Assembly (NCBI GenBank): GCA_030167865.1 | Contig: JALAGF010006529.1 | Location: forward strand, 1 to 64,000 | Reading direction: 5' to 3' | DNA: 64,000 bases | DNA from: Craspedostauros australis | Taxonomy: Eukaryota | Part shown: positions 5,201-55,472 of the stretch, piece by piece | Numbering within the stretch: position 1 is the stretch's first letter | Layout of the letters: the number at the start of each line of letters is the position of its first letter | Notes under the pieces: model-generated | What the model was told of the DNA's origin: nothing | Database searches by the model: none | Seen by the model: the letters and a program-made list of their open reading frames with translations, nothing else | Position numbers and translations under genes: made by a program

Positions 5201-5795
5201 GTGCAAGCGGGGGCCATTGTTTGGTCGTGAGGCGATAGTGGCCAAGAACATGGGCCGGAGGTTGGAGGTGAAGATCTCCGGCATGACCATGTCCGTCAAG
5301 CTGACCGAAGTTTCGGCATTCACATCTAGCAAGCTGCCTGAAATCAGCACGATCAGCAGCAGCATCAACAGCAGTTACAACAGCAACAAGGGACAGAGTA
5401 TGAAAGGAACCAGAGCGTCGGGCAAAGCCGCTGCATCGAAGGCTGCGGAAAGAGCAATTCAGACAGAAGGGAGGGTGAGGGATGCATCCGTTGAGGTCGG
5501 CGGCGCTGTCCAGCGCCCGAAGAAGGCTGGTGTGGCAATCCGAACTGATTCCAACACCGTCGACGTGCGTGGGTGCTACTTCGAGGAAGCCAGGGATAAA
5601 GCCAGGGGCAAGTTCAGCGAAAGTATCATGAGCGGACGAACGACTGTCTTCATCTTGCACGGTCACGGCACGGGCGGCGTCCTCAAGGCAAAGCTCAGGG
5701 CTTGGTTGAATTCGGAGAAGTCGATGGTGAAACAATGGAACCCGGCGGAACAAACCGACGGTGGCGACGCCTTCACTCGTGTGGAGCTCAAATAG
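2277..5795 (+). CDS. mutS2: MutS2 family ATPase with C-terminal Smr domain, predicted plastid-targeted
   Basis: 1172 aa, intronless. ARHP motif, Walker A TGPNSGGKT, ADIGDIQS..LSTFSGHM, Walker B LMDELGSGTDP, TTHY, coiled coil, KOW-like LKVGD, Smr ILHGHGTGGVLK. N-terminal signal peptide followed by TSA-F. Confidence 0.95.
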   Translation: MRCSAAVLCLLVAGTHTRSFQTSAFTLPLSQSPQSRDGYQRFTSCTRVARQTRSSSLRESSDGTRGGAYEDTNGGSDATATASVMLNPNDQNTQAGKDGYSVMRQPLSKGGWDPDVDPDFEAPSSLSDSNNAKADSSWWSGKQQQEGLQQGRARAPLYDSNPQANYNPNGRSFGVSSGLSQQGGGRMSSISSGIINIDGDDNGSDGDNEDFNDPLADEALAMNQLDLFQRSLDTLDFAFVLNALRVECFTTPARRMIDEGKQASILFGDETANGSNKSGQSKNNKGNGKSKSKSNMKDNEAFRPLTGNNVEAVQERYAAVQEMQLLLAQEVSLGDAYYKSRRGYKVKVGGGNPPPLEGLSFDLDSILEICDEGNVLEGPEILEISTIMDAVEDLELWGKGLEHVNEGEIQFVELPKIVQNIDRNETLQTLLSDAFDKNGKLSGKTFPTLGRLRATVRTLKADILQTLDSLVALPSIKSKLALESGGPLYSEISNGGRLVLPIDPKYASSIGIVHDSSRSGKTVYVEPSEVVGPTNELRQMEAELRQEEARVWRSLTEQILNNRQSLSQSVHAVGQLDLVLARTLLGDKIGGVVPTVKDEGVISLQDARHPVLLLRGLPNVVGSDIDLGKDGNQGLVLTGPNSGGKTVIMKLLGLVALMSRSGIPVPAARPRPGQEDYVPRVDYFDPILADIGDIQSVDGDLSTFSGHMLVCREVLANSGRNALVLMDELGSGTDPAQGVAIAQALLEALVDTGCRVAITTHYMELKQLAASDSRFSVAGMQFVRGRPTYKLLPGTVGESFAMAVAERLDLPGAVVTRAYDLLDTETRQMGDLIRELEDQKSVVEEQAAELEEKKKEMAAFESKMQEEQARLERKMLNARRDEAKKFAHKLEEKEKVLEDVLDKLKSDPSRKIIAKSWDNIKFVKRDALTEAENVPSVVAAKKKAAQTQANIQAELIPVAEMREKPELKVGDKLIMCKRGPLFGREAIVAKNMGRRLEVKISGMTMSVKLTEVSAFTSSKLPEISTISSSINSSYNSNKGQSMKGTRASGKAAASKAAERAIQTEGRVRDASVEVGGAVQRPKKAGVAIRTDSNTVDVRGCYFEEARDKARGKFSESIMSGRTTVFILHGHGTGGVLKAKLRAWLNSEKSMVKQWNPAEQTDGGDAFTRVELK

Positions 5796-8494: not shown

Positions 8495-9655
8495 TTATTC
8501 GAAGATGGGAGCCAAAGCCGCGAGGGATGGGTCACCGAACAAGGCATGCAGCAACCCGTCCGTACCAAACCAAAGCAGGACACCGGCAGTCAATGGCGTG
8601 ATCCACGGCCCCACCGCGGCGTAGATGGAAGTCTTGTCGTTGCCCATCTCCTTGAGGTTGACCAAGAGCTGCCCGCCCGATGCGGCCACGGCCAGCAACG
8701 GCGTCGCGTAACCGAGCGTGTAGAACAAGAGCAGGGTGCCTCCGAGGATGGGATCGGAGCTGTTGGCAACGTAGGCCAGGATGGAAGCCAGGACGGGGGT
8801 CGCGCAGGAGGACGCGACGAGGGCAGACGAACCACCCAGAAGGAAGGTCCGCACGAGCGATCCCTGCTCTTTCTGCTTGCTTTCATCGTCGGCGATGACC
8901 TTTCCGCTGGCGTTGATTAGAAGCGGTTCGTTGCTGACGCCGATGCCACCGACGCCGCCGTTGAACAGCGATGGTGATGATGACGATGACGATGTTGAAG
9001 ACGCTGCTGCGCTGAGAGAGGGAAGAGGGATACGGATCAATTCCAGCAGCTGCAGTCCCATGAGGCAGCAGATTCCATTGGACATAAGAGGAAGGAAGGC
9101 GCTCATGTTGCCGGAGTTGCCATAGATGACCCCACCCACGGACGAAGCGATGATTCCTAGCGTGCAGAAGACGAGGGCCAGACCACCCGCGAAGGCGAAG
9201 GTTGGGAGGAGCGTGGCCTTGTCCTTGCGTTCCCCAGCTGCCGTGGAGATGTAGGACATGGTGAGCGGCAGCAATCCCCAGACGCATGGCGAGAAGGACG
9301 TGAGCAGTCCGGCGCCGTACATGATGGGGATGGAGGTGACGAGGTCGGTGGGATCGTTGAGGGAGATGGATGCCAGATCGGATGCCGCCGATTGGGCGTT
9401 GAACAGCACGTCCTCCCAGCTGCCGCTCAACTGCATTTGCAGCTGCGTCTGCAGATGTGCTGAAGCCTCATTCCCTCGTCCATCGACTATAGATCTCCTG
9501 CCGATTATGGATGCAGATGCAAATGTGGATGCAGATGTGGATGTCGTCGTTGTCGGTGGTGCAAATGCAGCGCAGGTGGAGAGACCGATGGCGGTCGCCA
9601 GGCTCAGCATCGCGACGCTTCTCGATATCCTTGCCATTGTCATTGTCAGTGTCAT
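8495..9655 (-). CDS. ccdA: Cytochrome c biogenesis thiol-disulfide transporter CcdA (DsbD transmembrane domain), plastid-targeted
   Basis: GLLTSFSPCVWGLLP and ALVASSCATPVLASIL carry the two conserved Cys. About six hydrophobic segments; presequence ...TCAA-FAPP. Confidence 0.92.
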   Translation of the reverse strand: MTLTMTMARISRSVAMLSLATAIGLSTCAAFAPPTTTTSTSASTFASASIIGRRSIVDGRGNEASAHLQTQLQMQLSGSWEDVLFNAQSAASDLASISLNDPTDLVTSIPIMYGAGLLTSFSPCVWGLLPLTMSYISTAAGERKDKATLLPTFAFAGGLALVFCTLGIIASSVGGVIYGNSGNMSAFLPLMSNGICCLMGLQLLELIRIPLPSLSAAASSTSSSSSSPSLFNGGVGGIGVSNEPLLINASGKVIADDESKQKEQGSLVRTFLLGGSSALVASSCATPVLASILAYVANSSDPILGGTLLLFYTLGYATPLLAVAASGGQLLVNLKEMGNDKTSIYAAVGPWITPLTAGVLLWFGTDGLLHALFGDPSLAALAPIFE

Positions 9656-10309: not shown

Positions 10310-12455
10310 TTACTTGGCGATGACCTTCATGAGGAGGGTGGCGGCGGAACCCACGATGGCTCCGGCAGCCATGATCATGACGGGGCTTGGTCCTGTCTTT
10401 GGTGTTCCCAGCTGTGGGGAGCCTGGTTCCTGAGATGGTGTGTACGTACCTTTGGATCCCAACTTGTCGCAGCTCTCCACGACGCGCTTGGCCATGGATT
10501 CCTCCGCCGCTCGGCACCACTTTCGTGGATCGTAGTACTTCTTGTTTGGCTTGTCCTTGCCATCTGGGTTTCCGATCTGTCCCTGCAGGTAGGCGCGGTT
10601 CTTGTGCTCGAAGGCACGGAGACCGTCCCAGTAGGCCCACTGGGTGTCGGTGTCGATGTTCATCTTGATGACGCCGTTCTCGACGGCGGACTTGATCTCG
10701 CTATCGGTGGATCCGGAGCCTCCGTGCATGACGAGGTAGATTGGCTTGTCGAGAGGAGAATTGATCATCTTCTTGGCGTAGGCCTGGTGCTTTCCGAGAC
10801 GCTCTGGGGAGAGCTTCACGTTGCCTGGCTTGTAGACACCGTGGACGTTACCGAAGGCGGCGGCGACGGAGAACATGTCACCGACCTTGGAGAGGGCGTC
10901 GTAAACCGAGTACACCTGTTCTGGGCTGGTGTAGAGCTTCTCTGGGTCGACATCCTCGTTGTTGACACCGTCTTCCTCTCCTCCGGTGATTCCGATCTCC
11001 ATCTCGAGCCAGATCTTCATTGGCGCCATGCGCTTGAAGTACTCGACGCAGATGGCGATGTTTTCCTCATCTGGCTCCTCGGAGAGATCGAGCATGTGGG
11101 AGGAGAAGAGCGGCTCTCCGTACTTGGCGAAGAACTCCTCGTCGGCCTCGAGCATGGCATCGAACCATGGAAGGAGCTTCTTGGCACAGTGATCGGAGTG
11201 AAGGACGACTGGCACACCGTAGTACTTGGCGACGCAACGGGTGTGCATGGCAAGGGCGACGGAACCGGCGGCGGCTGCATTCTTGTCCTTGATGGACTTT
11301 CCGACCAGGAAGGAACCTCCTCCGTTGGAGACCTGGATCATGATTGGGGACTTGGCGAGTCTGGCAGCCTCGAGGGCGGCATTGATGGTGGAGGAGCTGT
11401 GTGCCGGCGCAGTTATCAAAATCAGAAAAAAGGCGTTGGTTATGATGCAGAGTGCACGATTTTTGTTGTTGTCGTCATCGTTTTTCAGTTGGAGTTTTGG
11501 TTCATTTTTCATTCGGTTTTGTGGTTTGTGTGGATGCAACGTCATGCGTGTGACGAGAGAAAGGAGATGAAGTACGGTGGATGGGTTGATGTGTGCAGTG
11601 TGAGTTGTTGCGCTGTTGCACTGTGCATTTGGCAAATTTGAACACAATTCGGGGTTATGACTACGAGCAGGTTGCGATCATGCTGTATATTGTGGTGCAT
11701 GTTGTGGTGTGTGATGCGGTGCGTTTTGCGATGGTCGTTGAAGGTCGGTAGCGACGGTGGGATGGCAGAATTCTCGCAAAGCGGCCCAGATTCTACATTT
11801 CAGTTCGGGGCGCTCGATCTTGTCCGATCTTGTTGGTCAATGCGCGCGGTGCAATTGCGCGCGGTGGTTCGCGTTGTACAATGATCGCCTCGCCCCGCAG
11901 CTGCTTGGCCGAGTACGATTGCGAGTATTCTCATTCTCATCCCCATTGCAATCGGTCGAAACCGTCACACTGCGCTGCGCTGCACTACACTGCACCCCAC
12001 CGCATTGTGTTTTTGTGCGGTACGCATGCTGCCTGGCTGTTGTTTGGATGTTGTTACTCTTGCCCGCTGCGGATGCGACGACGACCTCGTGTTTTTCAAT
12101 TGCGCCAAATGGCCATCCGCATTCAATCCCGCGCCCACCACTCTATTGCCACCATCTTGAGATGATGACAACCAAGTGGATGGCAATCGTCGAACCGGAT
12201 CCGGACCGCGCAACACGCATCAAGTACCAAACAAGAAACGGCAAGGGTAGGACCACGTGAAGAGCATGCAATGGCCACACGGACTTGTCTGACGACAGTG
12301 CGCATGTGCTCTGTCCCATGAGAGAGCAAGATGACTCACCTTGTGCAGTTGACGGCTGGGATGGCGTAGCTGTTGGCACGGGCATGATCCAAGAGGGTGA
12401 CAAGGTCGTCGCCGGTGACGACGCCTGCTGGGACGATATCGTTGAGGGAGGCCAT
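10310..12455 (-). CDS. FBA: Fructose-bisphosphate aldolase class II, no N-terminal presequence (FBA3-like), 2 exons, 400 aa
   Basis: Exon 1 12455-12340 (MASLNDIVPAGVVTGDDLVTLLDHARANSYAIPAVNCT). Intron 12339-11397 (gtgagt...acag). Exon 2 11396-10310. Motifs HSDHCAKK, SSHMLDLS, EIGITGGEEDG, FGNVHGVYKPG, HGGSG, KMNIDTD. Confidence 0.95.
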
Positions 12456-28703: not shown

Positions 28704-29665
28704 CCTTGGTTGGTATCGATTGATGTATTCTCCTTCTCTCTCAACCTCTCTCTCTCTCTCTCCAGAGCAGATAGTGATTGAATGAGCGATGGTCTTGATT
28801 GTCTTGATTACCTTGATTACGAGGATGGGTGCTATCTCTTGTCCTCTCTCTCCCTCTTGATCTCTCAGTTTGATGGCAAAATAACGTTGGATGATTTGGC
28901 CAACAGAGTGCTCTCTATCTCTCCCTCTCTCTATCTCTCCCTCTCTCTATCTATCTATCTCTCTACTCGATTATTGTCAACCGCTGGAGTTTGCTGATCG
29001 TGGACTTGTCTCTTCCTCTTGATCGCCAATTCACAAAGGATGGTCGTCTTCCTTGTGTGCGTGTCTTGGGGTGGCGTGGGGTTGTGCCGTGTTTGGATGG
29101 TGTCAACCAAGATTGGTTTTGAGCATCGTAGGCATTCCGGGAGAAACAAAAAGAGGTCACGGTGGCCTGAGATACACGCGGTGGTCTGCCGAATGTCCTT
29201 GTTTGTTCTGCGTGGTTGGAAGCGTTGGACGAATGGCTGCCAGGTTGGCGCCAAGTTTGTCATCCCAGTCGTGTCAGAACTCTCTGAATCACGCTTTCGT
29301 GTCGCCGATGACGTCATACTGTGACGAAACAAGTCGGCACAACTTGTCAATCAAAACGTTCATGATGCAAGCACGACGAAAACACGCACAAAATGAGGAA
29401 ACATCGTCACTTTTTCTGACACTCCTCAGCAACGACGTGTCGCCTCTTGTGTGTTGCAGCGCTGGCCACCTACTGGATTCTCTGCCTCCACCATGCCTCT
29501 TCCTTCTTCTCCTTCTTCTTTTGTTGTTCTGTCTTGTTGTTGATCCTTGATCTTCTCCAATTGCATCGATGTCATACAACTGAACCAGAGACAGCACGCA
29601 AGGGATTCCCCATCAGCCAGATCATCTTCCAAAGTTCAGCTCAGCTCATGTTTGCGATCATCAAC

Positions 29666-30781
29666 ATGACGAGTTGCCGCTCCATCAGTCTCACGGTGAC
29701 AGCCGTGATGGCCTGCCTTGTGCTGTCAGCCAGGGTAGATGCCTTCACCACCACCCCGCATTCGAGCATCCACCATTCTCCAGCAGATGCGACTGGAGCT
29801 GGAGTGAGGCTCATGTCGGCCGCGATCGACTCTGCTACTGGCGGAGAGAGCATTTCCAGAGCATTGGAGGACTTTGATTACGAAGCAAACGACAAGATCC
29901 CATGGATGCAGTCTGGCTACGATACCTGGAAGTGGCGTGGCAACGACATCAACTACATCGAGATGGGAGACAGATCCAAGCCCGCCATCGTCCTCATCCA
30001 TGGCTTCGGTGCGTCCGCGTATCATTGGCGGTACAACCTGCCAGTGTTGGCCAGAGACTACCACGTCTTCGCGTTCTGCATGCTGGGATTCGGACTCTCC
30101 AGCAAACCCATGGAGGATTACACACCGGAGCTGTGGCGTGACCAAACCACGGACTTCCTCCAACAAATCGTTGGCAAGCCGGCGGTCCTGGCCGGCAACA
30201 GCCTGGGCGGCTTCACCGCTCTCTACACCTCGGCATACGAAAAGGCGAAGCCACTCGTCAGCGGCTGCGTGCTTCTCAACGGCGCCGGCAAGTTCCGCGA
30301 GCCAGAGACCGAGGCCACCAACAACGAGGACAAGGAGAATCCAATCATGAAGAAGATCTCGGCCGCATTCCAGCGCCTCGTCATCGGTGCCTCCTTCATT
30401 TACACCAAGCAACCCGCACGCATAGAGCAGATCCTGCGGCAGGTGTACCCCGTCAATCCTGACAATGTCGATCAGGAATTGGTCGACGCCATCCAGTACC
30501 CATCCTTCCACCCCAACGCCGCCGAGGTCTTTTACCGCGTCATTTCCAGGACCTCCGCGGAGCGCAACGTCTTTGTGGACGACCTCGTGGATGATATGGA
30601 TTGCCCGTTGCTGCTGGCATGGGGAGACAAGGATCCGTGGATCCGACCGCAGGCGGCGGACAGAATTCAGGCCGCCAAGCCCACCTGCCAGCGCGTCAAC
30701 ATCGATGCCGGTCACTGTCCGCACGATGAAGCGCCCGAAGCCGTCAACCAGGCCATCAAGGACTTCATGCTGCAGGTTTGA
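29666..30781 (+). CDS. Alpha/beta-fold hydrolase, pheophytinase-related plastid family
   Basis: LIHGFGASAYHWRYN, nucleophile GNSLGG, WGDKDPW, AGHCPHDEAPE. Presequence ...ARVDA-FTTT. Alternative ATG at 29648. Confidence 0.9.
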   Translation: MTSCRSISLTVTAVMACLVLSARVDAFTTTPHSSIHHSPADATGAGVRLMSAAIDSATGGESISRALEDFDYEANDKIPWMQSGYDTWKWRGNDINYIEMGDRSKPAIVLIHGFGASAYHWRYNLPVLARDYHVFAFCMLGFGLSSKPMEDYTPELWRDQTTDFLQQIVGKPAVLAGNSLGGFTALYTSAYEKAKPLVSGCVLLNGAGKFREPETEATNNEDKENPIMKKISAAFQRLVIGASFIYTKQPARIEQILRQVYPVNPDNVDQELVDAIQYPSFHPNAAEVFYRVISRTSAERNVFVDDLVDDMDCPLLLAWGDKDPWIRPQAADRIQAAKPTCQRVNIDAGHCPHDEAPEAVNQAIKDFMLQV

Positions 30782-31194: not shown

Positions 31195-33771
31195 TTATGC
31201 CAAGTAATTGTATCTGCTTCTGTCCTTCTTGTCGCGCTCCAGATACTCTCGCTCGATGAGGCTCTCGATGCGCTTCTTGACATCGGACATCTGCGCTGGG
31301 ACCTTGACCTGCTCCATCACTTGTACGAGCAGTTGCTGATGCGTGATGGTCTTGCGGGCCTTCATGATGCGCACCAGCACAGCGTCGATCAGGTACAGGC
31401 GATCACGGTTGATGGCTTCCACCGTCTTGTCGCGGTCCTCCTTCGTCTCCCTCACCATGATGTTGGTGATTCGAATACGTTTGGATTTCGATTGGAATCG
31501 GTGCGACGCGCGGAACTTGTCGTCGTTGTGGACTGTCGTTCGGATCTTCTTCTTCTTGTCTGCATCGTGGTCGTGCTTCATCAGCACCCGCGTTCCGTCC
31601 TTGCCGATTGACAAGCTCTGCAACAGCCTTTCCATCTCCGCACGATCGTCCAGCCCCACCCGTTCCATCAGCTGGTAGATGGATAGTTCCTCACGTCCGT
31701 TGAACTGGATGAGCACCAGCGCTTGGCACAAGCTGACGACGAGGTCGAACTTTGGACCCGGTTGCTTCGGTTGGAACTGCACCACGCAGTGCCCCAGAGC
31801 GTACTGCCATGTTATCCGTCTGCCCTGGTACTGGCTCTTAAAATGCTCGATGAAGTGCTCCTGCGGCCTCTTGAGCTCTTCTGGCAAGATGAGGTGCTTG
31901 TACTGAGGGTAGGCAGGCCAGTAGCCGGTTGTCAAGACTTGGATGTCCATGTCAAGGTCTTCGCCGCCAGGGTTCGCGCCAGATTGGGCGGCCATGAGGG
32001 CTTGCTTGTAGCGCGTCTTCGTTTCGCGGCTCCATTCGGTGTCCTGGAACATTCCCTCCATCTTGGACGTGTACCCGGCTCCGCACTCGGCCTTGAGGAG
32101 GGAGACGAAATGCTTCTCGACGTCGACGCTGACCACCCTGCTCCACAGCAACCTCTTGGCCAGATCGCGCTTGTAGAATGCCTCGAAGACGTCCTTCGCC
32201 TGGAGGTAGCAAAAGACGCCGGAGATGATCCTGGAGGCCCAGCCGTTGCTGTCGCTGCCGAGCGATGGCTGCTTCTTGGAGTCTCGCAGGCACATGTCGA
32301 CGTACTTGGCGAGGGACTCCGCAATGATGGTGGTGTCCGCGACCGTGCCGCTCGACGACGGATGGTTGACGGGCGGGTTGACGACGTCCTCCCAGACGGG
32401 CTTGAGCGAGATGTGCTCGGCTGCGTGGGGCAGGCTCGATATGACCAGCTGCAGGTGCTTCTGCAAGTCCAGAAGCTTCTCCACTCGGGCCTTGCCGGTC
32501 TTGGCATCCGTGATGCTGGATGTCAGCGCGAGGCCGCGTGTTTTGGCGTACCGTGCGACGGCAGCCGCGAACAGCTTGGTGCCTTCGACTATCCTAGCCG
32601 CCAGCATCCAGAGGTGCTGGATGTGGGTTGGGCGGTCGGTCAGCTTCCTTGGGTCGGCTCCTGCCATGGATGATGGTCCTGCCATTCGCATCTGCGCCTG
32701 CGCTTGCAGTCCCGCAGATGAGGAAAGTCCCAGCTGCTGCTGATTCTCGGTCTCCAGCAACGGGTCGAAGTTGTTGGCATGCAGCAGCCAGTCATCGTGC
32801 AGGTGCGGCTGGATGAGGTTGATCTCGAGCAGCGTGATGCAGATGGCCTTCGGGAGGTACCTGCTCCACTTGTGCGCGACGTGTATCCATTTGCCGTGGC
32901 AGTAATCGATGACGTGCATCGCATTGTACTTGCCATCGTCGCCGTGCTTGAGCCGCTGCGATGTTTGCTGGAAGAGTTGGATGAGGTCCGGCTCCAGCCG
33001 GTTCTGCAGGATGGGACCCAGCACGCACAGATCCTGCCACATGTACCAGGTGGACTTGAGCAGCGCCTGCTGGTCCAATGCCAGGCTGTTCTCCCAGTCC
33101 AGCTTGAGCGACTCCCACCACTTCTGGTAGATGAGGTCATCGAGCTGGAAGTTCTCCAATCGCAGCCGGAACTGCTCCAGTCCTGCCTGCCACAGGTTCA
33201 TTGCGATCCCTGCGCCATGCATCGCCGTGGCGGAAGGACCAGCGGGCATTGGGCTGGAAGGATCAGCTCCCGCACCGGCACTGGCACCACCTGGCGGTGC
33301 ACCAGGACCAGCCTTCGATGACGAGCCTTCGATGCGCGTGACCGCCCCAGTGGACGACCAGGTGTGGGTCCGATCGAGCGGAAGGAAGACGTGCCTGCAG
33401 AGCAGGAGGTAGTCGACGTACTTCTGGAACTGCGCGTGGATGTGACCGAGGAGGTTGGGCGTCTCGGCCGGGAAGGACGGCAGCACGTACTCCTCGCATG
33501 CTCTCCTGAGCGTTGCCACGAGGTCCGTGTAGAGACGCGAGCCGAATTGGTGGCTGACAAGGTTGACGACCTGCGTGTAGGCCGTCTGCAGGCTGAGGTC
33601 GGAGGCATCCGCGGGCGAGAAGATGACCTTCATGGTGCCGTCGAGCAGCTGCTGGCTGGTCTCCTCATAGTAGTTGTCAGGGAGCCTTGGCGGTTTGCGG
33701 AATGGCTTGATAACGATCTTCTTGTGTGCGCCAGCAGCGCGCTTCTTCATCAGTGCCTTGGAGCGTGGCAT
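31195..33771 (-). CDS. CUL4: Cullin-4-like scaffold
   Basis: QAKDVFEAFYKRDLAKRLL, ECGAGYTSKMEGMFQD, VLTTGYWP, neddylation motif IDAVLVRIMKARK, KKRIESLIEREYLERD...YNYLA. First ATG in frame is 33771. Confidence 0.93.
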   Translation of the reverse strand: MPRSKALMKKRAAGAHKKIVIKPFRKPPRLPDNYYEETSQQLLDGTMKVIFSPADASDLSLQTAYTQVVNLVSHQFGSRLYTDLVATLRRACEEYVLPSFPAETPNLLGHIHAQFQKYVDYLLLCRHVFLPLDRTHTWSSTGAVTRIEGSSSKAGPGAPPGGASAGAGADPSSPMPAGPSATAMHGAGIAMNLWQAGLEQFRLRLENFQLDDLIYQKWWESLKLDWENSLALDQQALLKSTWYMWQDLCVLGPILQNRLEPDLIQLFQQTSQRLKHGDDGKYNAMHVIDYCHGKWIHVAHKWSRYLPKAICITLLEINLIQPHLHDDWLLHANNFDPLLETENQQQLGLSSSAGLQAQAQMRMAGPSSMAGADPRKLTDRPTHIQHLWMLAARIVEGTKLFAAAVARYAKTRGLALTSSITDAKTGKARVEKLLDLQKHLQLVISSLPHAAEHISLKPVWEDVVNPPVNHPSSSGTVADTTIIAESLAKYVDMCLRDSKKQPSLGSDSNGWASRIISGVFCYLQAKDVFEAFYKRDLAKRLLWSRVVSVDVEKHFVSLLKAECGAGYTSKMEGMFQDTEWSRETKTRYKQALMAAQSGANPGGEDLDMDIQVLTTGYWPAYPQYKHLILPEELKRPQEHFIEHFKSQYQGRRITWQYALGHCVVQFQPKQPGPKFDLVVSLCQALVLIQFNGREELSIYQLMERVGLDDRAEMERLLQSLSIGKDGTRVLMKHDHDADKKKKIRTTVHNDDKFRASHRFQSKSKRIRITNIMVRETKEDRDKTVEAINRDRLYLIDAVLVRIMKARKTITHQQLLVQVMEQVKVPAQMSDVKKRIESLIEREYLERDKKDRSRYNYLA

Positions 33772-34901: not shown

Positions 34902-37502
34902 TCAGTCGCTGCCTTCGGCTGTTGTGGTTGGCTCGGCGAGGGCGCCTGTCTTGCGTGTGGCTCCCTTGGGCTGTGCTCGCTTTCGCTTCGGAACCGTCTT
35001 GGACTTCGACTTGGATCTAGCATTGCCGTTGCTGGTGCCGCCCGTCTTCCTCACTCCTCTTGGGCCAGATCTGGATGGTGGAGCCGATCCTGTCTTTCGC
35101 TTGGCCGCACCTTTCTTGGCGCGCTTGGCACCACCAACAGGGCCTGGCACATCGCCACCACCTGGAGGCTTGAACAGATGATCCTTGCCTCTCACATTTC
35201 GCCTCCTTTCGGCCGGCGTCAGCAACGTGCCGCCAGTCTTCTTGTCCTCGTCCAGCACCTGGGTCACCGTCTCGAGCAGGATGTCGGACTCGATGAACGG
35301 CACTTGCACCACGGCTTCCCATGGCTGGCGCTTTCCATTCGGATCCTGCTTGAAGTCGGGTGGGTAGAAGTTGATCAGCGGCGATGTCGGCAGCAACATC
35401 AATTCGCCGATGGCCTCCGGCAAAAGCCCGGCACTTTGCGGTGGCAGAACGGACAGCAGCTGGGCGAGGCTTGGGAACGGTGTTCCCATCTCGAATGGGA
35501 ATGTTCGGAAGCCATCATCGTCAGCGTTAGCATCATTGTCAGCATCATTGTCAGTATCAGTGTCGCCTACAAAATCTTGGTAGAATTCACCAAGGTTCAC
35601 CATGTCCGTCGCCAGCGGGCTGTACAGATGTGGGAAGTACCAATCCCATGAGGAGCAACCGCGATGGTAGTAGTACAGGTTCCAATGCAGGCCCTCCAGG
35701 TAGTCGCGGACGTGCGCGCGCCTTTGGAACAACGTGCGTTCCCTGTCTTCCGCAGGCCAGCCCAGCTTCTCGTTGTAGTAAAAGTCTCGGTACGATCGTG
35801 ACTGGTTGCCAGGATGGCGGCGACGGAACGTGCGATTTCCAGTCTTTGGGCCATCGGAGTCGTCATCGGAGTCACCGCCCTCACCTTCACCCGGATCTTC
35901 GCTGGTCGATGCACTTGCACTTTCGGATGAGGCAACGACCGTGCTTGGAGGTGGTTGCGATCCCTTTTGGTTGGCAGCCACGGCACAGGCGGGTGTCGGA
36001 AGGCCGGAGTAGAATTCACCGTAAAAGTCTTCATCATCGTCTTCTTCGTCAGCAGAGAGCTTCCAGCCAGGTTCGTTCTCTTCGTAGCCACGGCGCTTGA
36101 AGTGCTCCTCCTCGTAGACGGCAAGGTGGTAGATGAACTCTTCGAGGCGCTTGGGATGGATCTTCTCCTTGTCGGTGAGGTAACCGCCCCATCCCCCAAG
36201 CAGCTCGATGTAGTTGGTGATCATGAGCGAGATGGCACCGCTGTCGATCTCGAGATGCGGGCAATGCGGGAGGAAATCGTTGCCAACCAGCATGCACATG
36301 AAGACGAAGTCGTCAATGACGCGGTCGAGCTTGTAGTTGTCAAGGCGATCGACGAACTTGCGGAATTGGATGGATAGCAGCTGTCGCAAGGCCGACAGCT
36401 CCAGCAGCTCGAAGTCATTCCTATCGTACTCCAGCATGTCCTTCTTCTTTCGGTACTTGTTGCGTCCTCTGCCCGCCATGACGACCGACATTTTCTCTCG
36501 CAGCAGCATGAATCTGGGCTCGTGCGTGACCAGACCGAGCATGATGAGGTCCGCATCGAGACCGTAGAGCACGTGCGTCCATCCCGGTGCGTACAGCGAA
36601 GTCTTCTTCCCGCTCCTGTGCTTCTCGCTGTATTCGCGGAGAAAGTTCATGACCTTGTGCTCACCTTCGCCGGGCACGTCCGGTCCGCTGACGATGACTT
36701 GGGCGCCGTTCATCCAGAAGGGATCCGTCTTCATCTTGTACTCCACCCACTTCTGCAGCGCGAGCGACAGCTTGAGCATGAAGTCCGTTCCCGGGGTGAT
36801 GCAGTTGGAATCAAAGCGCTCTTTGTCGGACTTGGGCGGCGCCGGCTTGCCGTTCTTGGTCTCCATGAGCTGCTCGCGTGCCAGGATTTCGGCCGCAGCC
36901 TGCTCGGCCTCCTTCGCGGAACGGAAGCGTCTGGATCGCTGCTGGTTCATCTTGGCACGCGGTGCGACGCCATCGACCGCCAAGTAGAGCACCTTGGAGG
37001 GTTGCACGAGCTTGTAAAGACGGTCGACGTACATGAAGATCTTTTTGAACATGGCTGTCTCATCGAGCAGCACGATCTCCCCATCTGCGTTGCCGTGCGT
37101 GCACGGGTGGATGATCCCATTCATGTCCAGGTAGAAGCTGTCGACGTCCGTGTCTGGCGTGAGTCCCTCCGTGAGGCGGCCGTTGATGATGTTGGGGTAC
37201 TGGTCCGTGAGCCAACGGAACATCTTCGGAATTCCATGCAGCTGCGTCGAGGTCGATGCTGCCGCGGTTGATCTGCCGATGATCGGGTGCACGTGACGGG
37301 CGTCGAATGGAGAGCTGCCGCCCTCCGACATGACATCAAATTCTCGCTGATGCTGCGTGGAAGGCTGCGGACCGAAATGCTTGATCGCTAATGTCCGAGC
37401 GGGCGAGAATGCGTCTGCGGCGACGCTGCAGTGCATCAGGACCAGCAGCACGATGAGTGCATTCGAAGCAAGGCCGATGCCCTGCATTCTGTGAGGAGCC
37501 AT
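34902..37502 (-). CDS. XRN: XRN-family 5'->3' exoribonuclease with N-terminal bipartite plastid-type presequence
   Basis: GIPKMFRWL, FYLDMNGIIHPC, AVDGVAPRAKMNQQRSRRF, FDSNCITPGT, PGEGEHK, YGLDADLIML, VGNDFLPH, YYHRGCSSWDWYFP, QLLSVLPPQS, DPNGKRQPWEAVV. Start chosen among several in-frame ATGs (37541-37487). Confidence 0.93.
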   Translation of the reverse strand: MAPHRMQGIGLASNALIVLLVLMHCSVAADAFSPARTLAIKHFGPQPSTQHQREFDVMSEGGSSPFDARHVHPIIGRSTAAASTSTQLHGIPKMFRWLTDQYPNIINGRLTEGLTPDTDVDSFYLDMNGIIHPCTHGNADGEIVLLDETAMFKKIFMYVDRLYKLVQPSKVLYLAVDGVAPRAKMNQQRSRRFRSAKEAEQAAAEILAREQLMETKNGKPAPPKSDKERFDSNCITPGTDFMLKLSLALQKWVEYKMKTDPFWMNGAQVIVSGPDVPGEGEHKVMNFLREYSEKHRSGKKTSLYAPGWTHVLYGLDADLIMLGLVTHEPRFMLLREKMSVVMAGRGRNKYRKKKDMLEYDRNDFELLELSALRQLLSIQFRKFVDRLDNYKLDRVIDDFVFMCMLVGNDFLPHCPHLEIDSGAISLMITNYIELLGGWGGYLTDKEKIHPKRLEEFIYHLAVYEEEHFKRRGYEENEPGWKLSADEEDDDEDFYGEFYSGLPTPACAVAANQKGSQPPPSTVVASSESASASTSEDPGEGEGGDSDDDSDGPKTGNRTFRRRHPGNQSRSYRDFYYNEKLGWPAEDRERTLFQRRAHVRDYLEGLHWNLYYYHRGCSSWDWYFPHLYSPLATDMVNLGEFYQDFVGDTDTDNDADNDANADDDGFRTFPFEMGTPFPSLAQLLSVLPPQSAGLLPEAIGELMLLPTSPLINFYPPDFKQDPNGKRQPWEAVVQVPFIESDILLETVTQVLDEDKKTGGTLLTPAERRRNVRGKDHLFKPPGGGDVPGPVGGAKRAKKGAAKRKTGSAPPSRSGPRGVRKTGGTSNGNARSKSKSKTVPKRKRAQPKGATRKTGALAEPTTTAEGSD

Positions 37503-38536
37503 CTTGAGATTGCGCATCGATGTTCTCATCAATTTTAGCATCAATATAAACGTGGAGGTCAACGTGAAGGTTGATGGGTATGAGTCTGGTTCTGGGCCCG
37601 ACTCTGATTATTGATCGCTGCAGTACGATCTACTCGTAGTCGTCCTTGTTCTGGCTGCCCTGGTTGTGCTGCTTACTCTTACTCTTTTGATTTTCTTTTT
37701 GTGGGTTGGGTGGTGATTGATGTTTGTCAGATGGTTGATGGGCAATGATGTGTGATGGTGTGTGATGATGGGTGGGTGATGGGTGGGTGATGGGTGATCA
37801 CAGAGTTGCACAAAGACATGAACAGATGCCTCGTGGGGCGGTCAGGCCTTTGAAGAAAATGATTGCGGGACTCGTGATAATTCGTGTTTGAACTTCATGT
37901 GGAATCATCTGAGTCATTTGCCCAATCGAGAAAAGAAATGAAGGAAAGGGAGAAAACACGGAAGGACAATGACTGCTTTCCGTCTTGGCCTCACCTCTGC
38001 GGAAGACGACAACAGTGAACAACACCCGCGATGCTTGTTGGAGTTGTGGTTCTCACATGCGTCTTCATTCATCTCATTTCTGCCATTCTCATACTCGTAG
38101 GTATGTGTGCAACTTGTCATCATCCTCTGCATTGGTGGAATACGTGAAGGCAGAGCAATTGCAATGGGAATGTTCTTGATCAACTGTTTGCTGCATAGGC
38201 ATGAACAGGAGCAGAGCAGAGTACTGCTATGTGCTGGAGTGGTGCCATCTTCTGCAGAGCACCCAACTTGCTGCTCTCGAGGAAGTACGAGTCTGTCCTC
38301 TGGAGCAACCTGCACGAGCTACGAGTATGATATGTCACAGTGCTCCATCTCTCGCACTCGCTCATTCCCTCACTCGCCCTTCATCCTTCCTGCATTTCAT
38401 CTCACAATCACTCGCACTTTCTTACTCACGGATTCGCACAAAGACGACAACAAGCACTGCATCAATCAGATTCAGCAATAGGAACGGAAAAGGAAGAGCG
38501 ATCTCAAACGCAAGAACAAGCATACACTACTGGAAG

Positions 38537-54116: not shown

Positions 54117-55472
54117 CTATTTCTTAGCTGCGCTGACTGCCTCCGCTTCGAAGTCCTTGAGATCCTGCTGGAGGGTGTCGTAGGCCTGCTCGGCCTCCGG
54201 AAGCTGCTGCGAGAAGAAGAGCTTCTGGGCCTTGACGCTGTTGATGGCGTTTCCGCGCAGCTTGGTGGCCTGGGCGGCGATCTGCTTCTCCGTCTGCAAT
54301 GCGACGTTGCCGGCGAACTTCTCCCTCAGGATGACCCTCTCGTTCTTGTCCAGCAACCGGCACGTGTTGTCCGTCAGCTCGAAGTCCTTGTCGAAGTCGT
54401 ACCCGATCTTGGCCGCGGCGGCGCGCATGCGGGGCAGCAGGGATTGCGGCATGGCCGAATCCCTTGTGTAGACCACGACGCCGCCGTATCCATCCCACGC
54501 GTCGTTGGAGCCCCTGTAGTAGACGAAGGCGAAGGGTGGCACGCCGTCCTTGTTGTCATCGTACTCGTAATCCACGATGTACCAGTCGTCCTTGTAATGC
54601 AGGTACTCGTTGTCGTGGTTGACCAGGTGCGCCGGGTGCTCCGGATCCTGCACGAACTGCTGCAGGGCGTCGCGCGTGAAGAACTCACCATCCGGCTCCT
54701 CCACTCGCCAGTTGAGCTGTCCGTAGAAGCGTCCCGGCGAGGTCTCCGTGAAGAAGTGGACCTGGCATGGGAAGATGTCGAAGAGCTTGTTCTGCCCGGC
54801 GGTGATGTACCACTTGCCGTTCCAGAGCTTGGTGTCGAATTTCTGCACGAAGGTGTTGGGGTCGAGGTCGGGGTAGAGGCCCTCGTCGGCCTTCTGGGGC
54901 ACGCAGTTCATCTCGGACACGACGCACTTGTTGAATTCGCCGACGACCGCGTTGTCGAAGAGGTCTCCGCATTGGATCTGGCAGCCGATCTCGTCCTCCT
55001 TGCCGTTGCACGTGTTGATGCAAACCACGTTGGCCAGGCACTTGGGGTTCGCAATGCACTTGGCCAGCGGGATCTGGCACTTCTGGAACAGGCACTTGAC
55101 GATGGCACCGGAGTCAGCTGCCATGGCAGGGGCAGGATCGACGAACATGGTGCCAACGGAGATGCCCAATGCCAGGATGGTGGATTTGAGCACGTTCTGG
55201 GGCTTCAGGAGCTGCGCCAGGATCGATGATTCCTTTCCATCGTGTCCGTTGGCAGCTGATAATGATGTGGACGTGGACGTGGGCGTGGATGTGAGTGAGA
55301 GCAAAGCCTTCACATCAGCGGCGTTGAATGATGCTGATGTTGTAGCTGTTGATGGTGCGTGCGATGGGGTCTTTTGTGGCCACGCTCCCTTCTGGTTTGG
55401 AACGAATGCCGATGCCGACGTTGCCGACAATCCAACCAGGATGGCCGCTGTGGTGATGCCTCCGAATCTCAT
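54117..55472 (-). CDS. VDE: Violaxanthin de-epoxidase
   Basis: Presequence SASA-FVP and lumen signal ending PAMA. Cys-rich domain CIANPKCLANVVC...CQIQCGDLF, lipocalin GKWYITAGQNKLFDIFPCQVHFF, NHDNEYLHYKDDWY, YYRGSNDAWDGYGG. Confidence 0.96.
   Translation of the reverse strand: MRFGGITTAAILVGLSATSASAFVPNQKGAWPQKTPSHAPSTATTSASFNAADVKALLSLTSTPTSTSTSLSAANGHDGKESSILAQLLKPQNVLKSTILALGISVGTMFVDPAPAMAADSGAIVKCLFQKCQIPLAKCIANPKCLANVVCINTCNGKEDEIGCQIQCGDLFDNAVVGEFNKCVVSEMNCVPQKADEGLYPDLDPNTFVQKFDTKLWNGKWYITAGQNKLFDIFPCQVHFFTETSPGRFYGQLNWRVEEPDGEFFTRDALQQFVQDPEHPAHLVNHDNEYLHYKDDWYIVDYEYDDNKDGVPPFAFVYYRGSNDAWDGYGGVVVYTRDSAMPQSLLPRMRAAAAKIGYDFDKDFELTDNTCRLLDKNERVILREKFAGNVALQTEKQIAAQATKLRGNAINSVKAQKLFFSQQLPEAEQAYDTLQQDLKDFEAEAVSAAKK

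What the first reader, a model, noticed from the sequence alone, without database searches (positions are those of the whole stretch)
34902..37502. An XRN 5'->3' exoribonuclease that appears to be targeted to the plastid
Seen: the XRN catalytic domain normally starts at the initiator Met (MGIP/MGVP). Here it starts internally at ...ASTSTQLH-GIPKMFRWL (Gly codon at 37235). About 90 in-frame residues precede it: a hydrophobic signal (NALIVLLVLMHCSVAADA), then F at +1 (ADA-FSP), then a Ser/Thr-rich segment ending STQL. All XRN active-site motifs are intact and the XRN1 C-terminal domains look absent. Established: signal + ASA-F-type motif + transit peptide is the diatom plastid-stroma address. 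XRNs are cytosolic or nuclear, and the known plastid 5' exonuclease is bacterial-type RNase J. Inference: a host-derived XRN was retargeted into the secondary plastid for RNA maturation or decay, and presequence cleavage would restore a near-canonical N-terminus. I do not know of a description of this. A Lys/Arg-rich tail (AKRAKKGAAKRK, PKRKRAQPK) and a downstream Met (MSEGG) leave open a second, nuclear isoform.
Basis: partly seen in the sequence, partly recalled or inferred. Interest (0 to 1): 0.85.

Follow-up and report, generated by a model that had tools for sequence, protein, structure and literature searches.

The report
Plastid-addressed XRN exoribonuclease of diatoms
A diatom nuclear gene encodes a eukaryote-type RNA-degrading enzyme (XRN) that carries a conserved address label for the chloroplast interior, which suggests that algae with red-alga-derived chloroplasts use an enzyme inherited from the swallowed red alga's nucleus to trim chloroplast RNA.

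Summary
Window 34902-37502 (-) is one uninterrupted ORF (866 aa). It has an intact XRN_N + XRN_M core that begins at Gly90, preceded by 89 residues: a hydrophobic signal, ADA|F, then a Ser/Thr-rich stretch.

The extension is not an artefact. 69 of 71 full-length diatom homologues have signal + [ASGC]-F, and none has Met before GIPK. The last residues before Gly match the measured diatom stromal processing site: Leu at -2 in 76/76 and Ser/Thr at -4 in 76/76. Cleavage there would leave GIPKMF..., the canonical XRN N-terminus.

Presequence-bearing relatives also occur in brown, yellow-green, raphidophyte and pelagophyte algae, Chrysoparadoxa and haptophytes.

The clade groups with short XRNs of red algae and the cryptophyte "dhm exonuclease". 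An AU test rejects a clade with ochrophyte long XRN1 (p 1.25e-10), which diatoms have as well.

Localisation and activity are untested here. No RNA runs were listed, no genome is held, and RNase J status could not be checked. Ten literature searches found no description.

Verdict: a real, conserved and probably undescribed plastid-targeted XRN clade. It is a new variant of a known enzyme family.

The parts
34902..37502 (-). Whole coding sequence of the XRN precursor (866 codons plus the stop at 34902-34904), with no intron needed
   Evidence: One HMMER stretch covers residues 78-851 against diatom homologue P0023.
37487..37541 (-). Cluster of five in-frame ATGs (37541, 37529, 37517, 37502, 37487). 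The true start is undetermined, and any of them leaves the signal peptide intact.
   Evidence: The ATG at 37502 has A at -3 and G at +4, read.
37410..37502 (-). Signal peptide, residues 1-31, hydrophobic core ALIVLLVLM, ending ADA
   Evidence: the best hydrophobic 11-mer scores 2.83. AF2 models a helix at residues 14-27. Known plastid proteins in the same window have similar N-termini.
37407..37409 (-). Phe32, the +1 residue after the predicted signal-peptidase cut (ADA|FSP)
   Evidence: [ASGC]-F is found in 69 of 71 homologues.
37236..37409 (-). Transit-peptide-like segment, residues 32-89 (58 aa: 13 S+T, 5 K+R, 4 D+E)
   Evidence: AF2 pLDDT is below 50 over residues 23-93.
37236..37253 (-). 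Predicted stromal-processing-peptidase site, residues 84-89 (T-S-T-Q-L-H), with the cut expected before Gly90
   Evidence: (Leu -2 in 76/76, S/T -4 in 76/76) compared with the motif read.
36492..37235 (-). XRN_N catalytic domain, residues 90-337 (D126, D177, E279, E281, D316, D318; K184, Q188, R191, R192)
35571..36335 (-). XRN_M helical domain, residues 390-644 (includes D409). The folded core continues to about residue 780.
   Evidence: (second stretch 669-747).
35823..36074 (-). Diatom-specific insert, about residues 477-560. It is absent from the other ochrophyte, red-algal, cryptophyte and haptophyte relatives in the alignment and is partly disordered.
   Evidence: alignment columns 680-780. 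One search gives low pLDDT for 528-552.
35517..35570 (-). Asp/Asn-rich low-complexity insert (residues 645-662)
   Evidence: pLDDT below 50 at 647-660.
34905..35156 (-). Disordered basic C-terminal tail, residues 783-866
   Evidence: 30 K+R against 12 D+E in the 129 residues after the core motif; pLDDT below 50 for 783-866.

Best explanation
This is a diatom nuclear gene for a short XRN-family 5'->3' exoribonuclease that is made as a precursor with a bipartite plastid presequence.

Inferred route:
1. The signal peptide takes the precursor into the ER and outermost plastid membrane, and is cut after ADA.
2. The exposed Phe32 and the Ser/Thr-rich transit peptide carry it across the three inner membranes into the stroma.
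3. The stromal processing peptidase cuts between His89 and Gly90.
4. This releases an enzyme whose N-terminus (GIPKMFRWL) is the same as that of a cytosolic XRN after removal of its initiator Met.

Inferred function: in the stroma it would digest 5'-monophosphorylated plastid RNA (products of endonuclease cuts, processed precursors) from the 5' end. That is the job RNase J does in plant chloroplasts.

Origin: the gene belongs to a clade inherited from the red-algal endosymbiont's nuclear genome. It is related to red-algal short XRNs and to the cryptophyte 'dhm exonuclease'. It is not a copy of the host's own long XRN1. Presequence-bearing members occur across ochrophytes and in haptophytes.

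Shown here: gene structure, intact catalytic residues, fold, conservation of the presequence and cleavage motif, and phylogenetic placement.
Inferred only: localisation, cleavage site, substrates.
For: 1. Intact enzyme.
- Pfam XRN_N and XRN_M both match.
- E 3.4e-115 to human XRN1, with Gly90 aligned to residue 2.
- All seven acidic residues and the K/Q/R/R pocket are invariant in 17 sequences.
- GEGEHK and GLDADLI are present in 121/121 homologues.
- AF2 core is confident (pTM 0.74). Foldseek best hits are Rat1/XRN2/XRN1 (E 3e-40, TM by target 0.71-0.83).

2. Presequence.
- 69 of 71 diatom homologues with an extension of at least 35 aa have [ASGC]-F 7-32 aa after the hydrophobic core. The two misses are explained: in P0054 the motif lies further along, and P0067 is N-truncated.
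- 54 of 69 have Pro at +3 or +4.
- The control passes 0/169 canonical XRN N-termini.
- The transit-like parts are 30.0% S+T with net positive charge in 57/69.

3. Cleavage motif. Leu -2 is 76/76, S/T -4 is 76/76, A/S -3 is 53/76, S/T -5 is 63/76 and S/T -6 is 61/76. This matches the motif from 63 measured Thalassiosira mature N-termini (PMC3774753, section read).

4. Relatives that keep Met before GIP (Tribonema, Ectocarpus, Heterosigma, haptophytes) fit the Met-removal route described in that paper.

5. Plastid-type proteins in the same window have the same architecture: VDE SASA|FVP and CcdA CAA|FAP. The cullin has none.

6. Breadth. Presequences are seen in Tribonema, Ectocarpus, Chrysoparadoxa, Pelagophyceae sp. 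CCMP2097, Diacronema and many unnamed relatives. 47 of 60 non-diatom proteins with an extension pass the test.

7. Phylogeny.
- The short-XRN clade has 47 rows (SH-aLRT 100).
- The ochrophyte + Vitrella clade has 26 rows (100).
- This clade joins the red algae (88), then the cryptophyte dhm proteins (84).
- The Chaetoceros debilis cluster (P0136) and Chattonella (P0141) have separate long XRN1 genes.
- An AU test rejects uniting them with the plastid-type clade: delta lnL 127.25, p 1.25e-10.
Against: - There is no experimental localisation, no transcript data and no proteomic evidence.
- SignalP, ASAFind and HECTAR were not available. The signal-peptide call rests on hydropathy and motif rules that I wrote.
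- The transit-like segment is atypical. In the window it is 58 aa with 4 acidic residues. Across 69 homologues the median is 43 aa, and 36 of 69 exceed the 42-aa maximum of the 63 measured Thalassiosira transit peptides. D+E is 4.1%, against about 0.9% reported.
- Position -1 is mostly Phe (50/76). The measured motif prefers small, amidated or charged residues at that position.
- The red-algal sister relation has only moderate support (SH-aLRT 88 and 84, quick search). The root is assumed. The AU group was named after the tree had been seen.
- Whether diatoms also have a plastid RNase J is unknown here, so the physiological need for this enzyme is open.
- XRN needs 5'-monophosphate ends (recalled knowledge). 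Primary plastid transcripts carry triphosphates.
Confidence: 0.72

Rival explanations
1. The protein stops in the periplastidial compartment, the relic cytoplasm of the red alga. There it would be a leftover of the endosymbiont's own cytosolic or nuclear RNA decay, like the cryptophyte 'dhm exonuclease', and would never enter the stroma.
For: The clade is related to the cryptophyte 'dhm exonuclease' proteins. Their FYMINK/GARP ratio of 2.0-2.6 fits a very AT-rich genome. Their nucleomorph origin is my recollection, not a tool result. The long and somewhat acidic transit-like segment is atypical for stromal proteins.
Against: Phe at +1 is conserved (69 of 71), and Phe at +1 is needed for passage across the inner membranes (statement in PMC3774753, passage seen). 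A stromal-peptidase-type motif is fixed right before Gly90. As far as I recall, no nucleomorph or RNA is known in the diatom periplastidial compartment, so the enzyme would have no substrate there, yet its catalytic residues are under strict conservation.
Confidence: 0.1
2. Only the signal peptide works, and the enzyme is a secretory-pathway, vacuolar or extracellular nuclease.
For: A hydrophobic N-terminal signal is present. No localisation data exist.
Against: This does not explain the conserved F at +1, the Ser/Thr-rich spacer or the invariant Leu -2 and Ser/Thr -4 before Gly90. The sequence ends ...AEGSD, with no ER-retention signal. As far as I recall, XRNs are not known as secreted enzymes.
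Confidence: 0.05
3. The extension is an artefact: a sequencing error at CAT-GGA, a wrong start, or an unspliced intron. The real protein would start near GIPK and be cytosolic or nuclear.
For: Many database models start at MFRWL (29 of the 121 proteins examined). Canonical XRNs start with MG[IV]P.
Against: Among 76 independent homologues with upstream sequence, none has Met at -1, and all keep an in-frame extension with conserved motifs. A start at MFRWL would remove GIPK. G90 and P92 are invariant in the alignment, and the MFRWL start is typical of prokaryote-style gene calling. The ORF is open for 901 codons.
Confidence: 0.03
4. As well as the plastid form, a second isoform made from a downstream start (MSEGG, residue 57) uses the Lys/Arg-rich tail as a nuclear localisation signal.
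For: The internal Met and the basic tail exist. Basic tails are common in the diatom homologues examined: in 13 homologues K+R is 12-30 over tails of 72-129 residues.
Against: The internal Met is not positionally conserved: only some homologues have any Met in this segment (listing). The tail sequence is not conserved and is missing in Chrysoparadoxa, Heterosigma and P0126, whose tails are 36-47 aa. Diatoms already have a long XRN1. A disordered basic tail could equally be an RNA-binding region.
Confidence: 0.08

Closest known systems
XRN1/Pacman (cytoplasmic 5'->3' exoribonuclease; PDB 9e70, 2y35, 3pie)
   Same: Same catalytic core and fold. E 3.4e-115 to human XRN1, and all active-site residues are kept. 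In the FastTree the short clade lies on the XRN1 side of the split from the XRN2/Rat1 group. The IQ-TREE only separates it from XRN1 and XRN2 together.
   Different: No Pfam match to XRN1 C-terminal domains; 866 aa against about 1400-1900 aa. It carries an 89-residue presequence in place of the initiator Met. It is phylogenetically separate from diatom and raphidophyte long XRN1.
XRN2/Rat1 (nuclear; PDB 3fqd, 5fir, 7opk)
   Same: Similar size and two-region architecture. These are the best Foldseek matches (E 3e-40).
   Different: XRN2-like sequences form their own group (support 100). Partner-binding features were not examined. Nuclear location is unlikely for a protein that begins with a signal peptide.
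Red-algal short XRNs (source names include '5'-3' exoribonuclease 4' in Gracilariopsis chorda and 'exoribonuclease 2-like' in Porphyridium purpureum; also Cyanidium, Pyropia and Galdieria)
   Same: Nearest named relatives outside ochrophytes (45-54% identity). Same short architecture. Florideophyte members even share GIPKMFR.
   Different: Red-algal proteins start with the canonical M-G-I-P and have no presequence, so they are presumably cytosolic or nuclear.
Cryptophyte 'dhm exonuclease' (Cryptomonas sp., C. curvata; about 550 aa)
   Same: Same short-XRN clade. It fits a common origin from the red-algal endosymbiont's nucleus.
   Different: Canonical start with no presequence. Composition indicates a very AT-rich genome. 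That it is nucleomorph-encoded is recalled, not shown here (paper search found nothing).
Chloroplast RNase J (bacterial-type beta-CASP 5'->3' exo/endonuclease of plants and green algae)
   Same: The proposed job is the same: 5'->3' trimming and decay of plastid RNA. RNase J roles were seen in the abstracts listed and in passages of PMC7154860.
   Different: Unrelated fold and ancestry, with no beta-lactamase or beta-CASP domain here. XRN has no known endonuclease activity (recalled).

Membership tests
XRN 5'->3' exoribonuclease family | XRN_N (PF03159) and XRN_M (PF17846) domains above Pfam gathering scores | tested here: met
   285.7 bits (cut-off 22.9) and 261.6 bits (cut-off 23.8).
XRN 5'->3' exoribonuclease family | Seven conserved acidic active-site residues and the basic 5'-phosphate pocket | tested here: met
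   D126, D177, E279, E281, D316, D318, D409, K184, Q188, R191 and R192 are invariant in 17 sequences. One search aligns the motifs to human and fly XRN1. The roles of these residues are recalled from the XRN1 structure papers.
XRN 5'->3' exoribonuclease family | XRN core fold | tested here: met
   (AF2, pTM 0.74). Foldseek E 3e-40 to Rat1, XRN2 and XRN1; TM by target 0.71-0.83.
XRN 5'->3' exoribonuclease family | Polypeptide begins M-G-[IV]-P, so the mature N-terminus is Gly | tested here: inconclusive
   The precursor has His89 before Gly90. Cleavage at the conserved site would restore the Gly N-terminus, but this cleavage has not been observed.
XRN 5'->3' exoribonuclease family | 5'-monophosphate-dependent processive exonuclease activity | not testable with these tools
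   Needs enzymology.
XRN1 subfamily | C-terminal D1-D4 / SH3-like domains and length above about 1300 aa | tested here: not met
   One search finds no such Pfam family at E <= 0.01. The protein is 866 aa with a disordered tail.
XRN1 subfamily | Groups with long XRN1 of the same lineage | tested here: not met
   tree. AU p 1.25e-10 against a clade with the Chaetoceros-cluster and Chattonella XRN1 sequences (named).
XRN2/Rat1 subfamily | Groups with XRN2/Rat1 sequences | tested here: not met
   XRN2-like rows form a separate group with support 100.
Red-lineage short XRN clade (red algae, cryptophyte 'dhm', ochrophytes, haptophytes) | Placement inside the clade; only XRN_N + XRN_M; 540-870 aa | tested here: met
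   47 rows, SH-aLRT 100.
Diatom plastid-stroma bipartite presequence (ASAFAP type) | N-terminal ER signal peptide | tested here: met
   Hydropathy only (2.83), plus a modelled helix at 14-27. No SignalP or HECTAR run was possible.
Diatom plastid-stroma bipartite presequence (ASAFAP type) | Small residue at -1 and Phe (or Tyr/Trp/Leu) at +1 of the signal-peptide cut | tested here: met
   ADA|FSP in the window. 69 of 71 homologues have [ASGC]-F. The rule is as stated in PMC3774753.
Diatom plastid-stroma bipartite presequence (ASAFAP type) | Transit peptide rich in Ser/Thr, poor in Asp/Glu, net positive, 12-42 aa | tested here: inconclusive
   In the window it is 58 aa, with 13 S+T, 4 D+E and net charge +1. 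Across the family S+T is 30.0%, D+E is 4.1% and the median length is 43 aa. Ser/Thr content fits; length and acidity exceed the measured range.
Diatom plastid-stroma bipartite presequence (ASAFAP type) | Stromal processing site: Leu -2, Ala/Ser -3, hydroxylated -3 to -6 | tested here: met
   The window has L at -2, Q at -3, T at -4, S at -5 and T at -6.
Diatom plastid-stroma bipartite presequence (ASAFAP type) | Demonstrated stromal location | not testable with these tools
   Needs GFP fusion, immunogold labelling or plastid proteomics.
RNase J (beta-CASP) | Metallo-beta-lactamase and beta-CASP domains | tested here: not met
   One search shows only XRN domains. The resemblance lies in the proposed role, not in family membership.

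The most novel reading that the evidence does not exclude
In algae whose plastids derive from a red alga (ochrophytes and haptophytes, possibly chromerids), the 5'->3' exoribonuclease of the plastid stroma is a eukaryotic XRN inherited from the endosymbiont's nucleus. The gene stayed in the nucleomorph in cryptophytes. In the other lineages it moved to the host nucleus and its product was redirected past the now-empty periplastidial space into the bacterial-type organelle. There it supplements or replaces RNase J. This would be the first XRN-family enzyme working inside an organelle of bacterial origin, and a case of an endosymbiont's nucleo-cytoplasmic RNA-decay enzyme being reused for organellar RNA.
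Probability: 0.5. Interest if true: 0.85.

Novelty: new variant of a known kind. Interest (0 to 1): 0.72.

Why it matters
Plastid RNA maturation and decay have been worked out almost entirely in plants and green algae, where the 5'->3' activity is the bacterial-type RNase J. Little is known about diatoms, which carry out a large share of ocean photosynthesis.

A conserved stroma-addressed XRN would give a concrete, testable candidate for 5'-end formation and RNA turnover in red-lineage complex plastids.

It would also show that endosymbiotic gene transfer can relocate a nuclear or cytosolic RNA-decay enzyme into the organelle. It would add a marker gene (red-algal short XRN, nucleomorph dhm, plastid XRN) for tracing how the endosymbiont's cytosolic machinery was dismantled.

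The exact fit between the predicted cleavage site and the canonical XRN N-terminus is a neat example of a targeting signal evolving under the constraint of an enzyme that needs a defined N-terminus.

Tried and rejected
- Sequencing error at CAT-GGA: rejected. 0 of 76 homologues have Met at -1, and Leu -2 is invariant.
- Database models that start at MFRWL (29 of 121): read as gene-calling truncations, because the other homologues continue upstream in frame.
- Whole genome of the window: none is held. Paralogues and RNase J could therefore not be searched in the same organism.
- RNA evidence: no RNA holder was listed for window:36900-37900. Read laying was not used, so the start codon and expression remain open.
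  - None returned a paper describing a plastid-targeted XRN.
  - The 40 papers listed all had zero occurrences of 'RNase J'. Searches listed two dinoflagellate plastid papers that hold 'RNase J' and 'diatom' once each; in the one checked both occurrences were in the reference list.
- Dorrell 2017 (PMC5462543): the main text has no occurrence of exonuclease, XRN, ribonuclease or RNase. Its supplementary tables, which list the 770 conserved plastid proteins, could not be read and may already contain this protein.
- ASAFind paper (PMC4329603): its 8 supplementary files contain none of the words searched.
- Nonoyama 2019 (PMC6723447): no occurrence.
- RNase J reviews: nothing on diatoms or red algae.
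- Chlamydomonas XRN1: appears only as a photosynthesis-candidate gene with predicted location 'other'.
- Nucleomorph origin of 'dhm': not verified in print. Only the AT-rich composition supports it.
- Nuclear isoform via MSEGG and the basic tail: judged weak.


Full report
**1. The observation**

The minus strand of the window is open from 37607 to 34902, 901 codons from stop to stop. Translation from the ATG at 37502 gives 866 residues (P0001).

Pfam finds two domains:
- XRN_N at residues 90-337, matching profile positions 2-241 of 241 (E 3.6e-85).
- XRN_M at residues 390-644 (E 1.9e-77).
- Nothing else reaches E <= 0.01, so no XRN1 C-terminal domains were found.

Against solved structures the best sequence match is human XRN1 (9e70, E 3.4e-115). 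Gly90 aligns to residue 2 of XRN1 and XRN2 chains, so His89 stands where every canonical XRN has its initiator Met.

The 89 residues before Gly90 read as follows:
- a hydrophobic core ending ...CSVAADA;
- then Phe32;
- then 58 residues with 13 Ser/Thr, 5 Lys/Arg and 4 Asp/Glu, ending ...STSTQLH.

Four more in-frame ATGs lie at 37541, 37529, 37517 and 37487. The ATG at 37502 has A at -3 and G at +4, but the real start is not known.

**2. It is an intact enzyme**

- In a 17-sequence alignment spanning diatoms, other ochrophytes, red algae, a cryptophyte and haptophytes, D126, D177, E279, E281, D316, D318 and D409 are invariant. So are K184, Q188, R191, R192 and H132. That these are the catalytic acids, the 5'-phosphate pocket and the base-stacking His is my recollection of the XRN1 structure papers.
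- GEGEHK and GLDADLI are present in 121 of the 121 proteins examined (the window protein plus the 120 proteins listed). LDMNGIIH is missing only from 15 N-truncated models.
- An AlphaFold2 model (17-row alignment, mean pLDDT 73, pTM 0.74) is confident over the core. It is below pLDDT 50 over residues 1-13, 23-93, 528-552, 647-660 and 783-866. These are the presequence, two inserts and the basic tail.
- Foldseek returns Rat1/XRN2/XRN1 structures first (E 3e-40, TM by target 0.71-0.83).

**3. The presequence is conserved, not accidental**

The 120 best homologues of P0001 are 56-72% identical. Every one that carries an organism name is a diatom: Nitzschia, Cylindrotheca, Seminavis, Pseudo-nitzschia, Mayamaea, Thalassiosira, Cyclotella, Skeletonema, Detonula.

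Of the 121 proteins:
- 71 have at least 35 residues before GIPKMFR;
- 5 have shorter stubs;
- 45 lack the motif, and 29 of these start at MFRWL, which I read as truncated gene calls.

In 69 of the 71, a small residue followed by Phe lies 7-32 residues after the most hydrophobic 11-mer. The two misses are P0054, where the motif lies further along, and P0067, which is N-truncated. 54 of the 69 have Pro at +3 or +4.

Controls with the same test at a hydropathy threshold of 1.8:
- 0 of 169 canonical XRN N-termini pass.
- 14 of 169 internal segments pass.
- 64 of 71 diatom homologues pass.

Plastid-type proteins encoded in the same window have the same architecture: violaxanthin de-epoxidase SASA|FVP, a CcdA-like protein CAA|FAP, a MutS2-like protein TRS|FQT and an alpha/beta hydrolase VDA|FTT. 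The neighbouring cullin has none.

**4. The junction with the enzyme looks like a stromal processing site**

Huesgen et al. 2013 (PMC3774753; I read the abstract, passages and part 3 of the text) determined 63 mature N-termini of imported Thalassiosira plastid proteins. They report:
- a very strong Leu at -2;
- Ala or Ser at -3;
- hydroxylated residues at -3 to -6;
- small, amidated or charged residues at -1;
- frequent cleavage before a Met that is then removed.

In the 76 homologues with at least 10 residues before GIPKMFR, counting back from Gly as +1:
- Leu at -2 in 76/76;
- Ser/Thr at -4 in 76/76;
- Ala/Ser at -3 in 53/76;
- Ser/Thr at -5 in 63/76 and at -6 in 61/76.

Position -1 is F 50, L 8, Y 6, H 4, N 3, S 2, E 1, C 1, Q 1. 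It is never Met, and it is bulkier than the published preference. The window reads T-S-T-Q-L-H|G.

Cleavage there would leave GIPKMFRWL. That is the sequence a cytosolic XRN has once its initiator Met is removed. Met removal before Gly is general knowledge and is also noted.

**5. What does not fit so well**

The transit-like segments are long and more acidic than the measured ones:

| Feature | This family (69 homologues) | Measured Thalassiosira peptides |
|---|---|---|
| Length | median 43, range 26-63; 36 of 69 exceed 42 | 12-42, mean 20 |
| Asp+Glu | 4.1% | about 0.9% |
| Ser+Thr | 30.0% | 32% |

Net charge is positive in 57 of 69. The first 20 residues after Phe average 0.58 acidic and 1.68 basic residues.

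No SignalP, ASAFind or HECTAR run was possible.

**6. Breadth beyond diatoms**

A search of cluster representatives, and searches seeded with a red-algal member (Cyanidium, P0132) and a haptophyte-type member (P0137), revealed a family of short XRNs of about 540-870 aa.

- Red algae all start with the canonical M-G-I-P: Cyanidium, Galdieria, Purpureofilum, Pyropia, Porphyridium, Agarophyton, Gracilariopsis, Compsopogon, Eucheuma. The Rhodella model (P0341) is N-truncated.
- Cryptophytes: the 'dhm exonuclease' of Cryptomonas (about 550 aa) also has a canonical start. Its FYMINK/GARP ratio of 2.0-2.6 suggests a very AT-rich genome. I recall dhm as a nucleomorph gene but could not confirm this in print.
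- Ochrophytes carry presequences:
  - Tribonema (..VSVA|FTPS..TVTM-GIPKLF);
  - Ectocarpus (..PVCA|FLLP..HLRM-GIPKLF);
  - Chrysoparadoxa (..SCRG|FQPA..STALN-GIPKLF);
  - Pelagophyceae sp. CCMP2097 (..GASG|FYTG..PVAH-GIPKMF);
  - Heterosigma (partial model);
  - many unnamed relatives.
- Haptophytes: Diacronema and many unnamed relatives have signal-like extensions before M-GVPKFF.
- Of the 60 non-diatom proteins with at least 30 residues before the conserved Gly, 47 pass the signal + [ASGC]-F test.

Several lineages keep the ancestral Met before Gly. Diatoms, the pelagophyte and some others have lost it. This is the order of events expected if an extension was added upstream of an originally canonical start.

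**7. Origin**

A FastTree of 155 rows and an IQ-TREE quick search agree. The IQ-TREE used LG+C20 PMSF on 65 rows and 581 columns, with presequences excluded. The groupings are:
- The short XRNs form one group: 47 rows, SH-aLRT 100.
- The IQ-TREE sets this group apart from XRN1-long plus XRN2-like rows together. In the FastTree it lies on the XRN1 side of the split from the XRN2/Rat1 group.
- Inside the group, the ochrophyte proteins plus Vitrella form a clade of 26 rows (100).
- That clade joins the red algae (88), then the cryptophyte dhm proteins (84), then the haptophyte-type group (98 for that group).

Diatoms and raphidophytes also possess a long, canonical XRN1: the cluster of P0136 contains Chaetoceros debilis, and P0141 is Chattonella subsalsa. 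The red alga Compsopogon has both a long XRN1 (P0163) and a short one (P0298).

Forcing the plastid-type clade together with the two ochrophyte XRN1 rows costs 127.25 log-likelihood units and is rejected (p-AU 1.25e-10). The group was named after the tree had been seen.

The simplest reading is endosymbiotic gene transfer of the red alga's short XRN, not retargeting of a host XRN. Three caveats apply: support for the red-algal sister relation is moderate, the root is assumed, and giant-virus short XRNs were not included.

**8. Mechanism proposed**

1. Co-translational entry into the ER, with signal-peptidase cleavage after Ala31.
2. Phe32-dependent passage through the periplastidial and envelope translocons.
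3. Stromal-peptidase cleavage before Gly90.
4. An active XRN in the stroma that degrades or trims 5'-monophosphorylated plastid RNAs.

All four steps are inferred. The gene, the motifs, their conservation and the intact catalytic centre are shown.

The basic disordered tail (30 K+R in the last 129 residues) is present in the diatom homologues examined but varies in sequence. It is absent in Chrysoparadoxa, Heterosigma and P0126. I read it as a non-specific RNA-binding appendage rather than a nuclear signal.

**9. Rivals**

- A periplastidial destination is the most serious rival, given the ancestry. It conflicts with the conserved Phe +1 and the stromal-type cleavage motif, and it would leave a strictly conserved nuclease without a known substrate.
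- A purely secretory fate, an annotation artefact, and an additional nuclear isoform are each less likely, for the reasons given in the structured fields.

**10. Is it known?**

Ten full-text searches and look-ups in seven papers found no description of an organellar XRN.
- A pan-eukaryote survey of mRNA decay factors treats Xrn1 and Rat1 only as cytoplasmic and nuclear (PMC5862402, passages).
- The main text of the ochrophyte plastid-proteome paper does not mention it, but its supplementary tables could not be read.
- The library lacks most subscription journals.

So I rate it as probably undescribed, not certainly.

The status of RNase J in diatoms, which decides whether XRN replaces or accompanies it, could not be established. 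No genome is held, and searches found no paper that discusses RNase J in diatoms.

**Verdict**

The finding is real, strongly conserved and biologically coherent. The targeting interpretation is well supported in silico. The claimed host origin should be replaced by a red-algal one. Localisation and function await experiment.

Noticed in passing
window 2277-5795 (+): A 1172-aa ORF with MutS domain V and a C-terminal Smr domain (MutS2 type). Its N-terminus looks like a plastid presequence (..GTHTRS|FQTS). A bioRxiv title listed says that plant MutS2 proteins act in plastid ribosome quality control; I saw only the listing.
   Followed up: partly
window 54117-55472 (-), 8495-9655 (-), 29648-30781 (+): Violaxanthin de-epoxidase (VDE lipocalin domain, E 8e-100), a CcdA/DsbD-type membrane protein and an alpha/beta hydrolase. 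All three have signal + A|F presequences (SASA|FVP, CAA|FAP, VDA|FTT). I used them as in-genome controls.
   Followed up: partly
window 10310-11545 (-): A class II fructose-bisphosphate aldolase ORF. Its ATG-to-stop N-terminus is Lys/Asn-rich with a hydrophobic stretch but no clear A|F motif. The 5' end of the model may be wrong or may contain an intron.
   Followed up: no
window 31195-33771 (-): A cullin gene (Cullin plus neddylation domain) lies directly downstream of the XRN gene on the same strand. It has no presequence.
   Followed up: no
window 35823-36074 and 35517-35570 (-): The XRN contains a diatom-specific insert of about 85 residues (EPGWKL...SYRDFYY) and an Asp/Asn-rich run (DTDTDNDADNDANADDD). 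The insert is absent from the non-diatom relatives in the alignment, and parts of both are modelled with low confidence.
   Followed up: partly
P0102: A homologue from 'Nitzschia sp. Nitz4' is listed. I recall this as a non-photosynthetic diatom that keeps a plastid genome. If that is right, the XRN is retained without photosynthesis, which fits a role in plastid gene expression. The gene model starts at MFRWL, so its presequence could not be seen.
   Followed up: no
(protein atlas): Clusters of short XRN proteins (about 450-640 aa) assigned mostly to Nucleocytoviricota are among the nearest neighbours of the haptophyte-type short XRN. Their relation to the red-lineage short XRN clade was not tested.
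   Followed up: no
P0124 and P0287: Two Cannabis sativa 'hypothetical proteins' (1248 and 1314 aa) score highly against short XRNs in several separate stretches (7 for P0124). In the FastTree, P0124 falls in the XRN2-like group. They may be tandem, fused or mis-assembled XRN models.
   Followed up: no
P0414, P0415, P0416: Haptophyte-type short XRNs, including Prymnesium parvum, carry a precomputed SAP domain (PF02037). Diatom homologues have a basic disordered tail instead.
   Followed up: no
P0346: The chromerid Vitrella brassicaformis has a member of the ochrophyte-type clade (MGIPKLFRWLIDLYP) that is modelled without a presequence. Whether the model is truncated, and whether apicomplexans have one, was not examined.
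   Followed up: no
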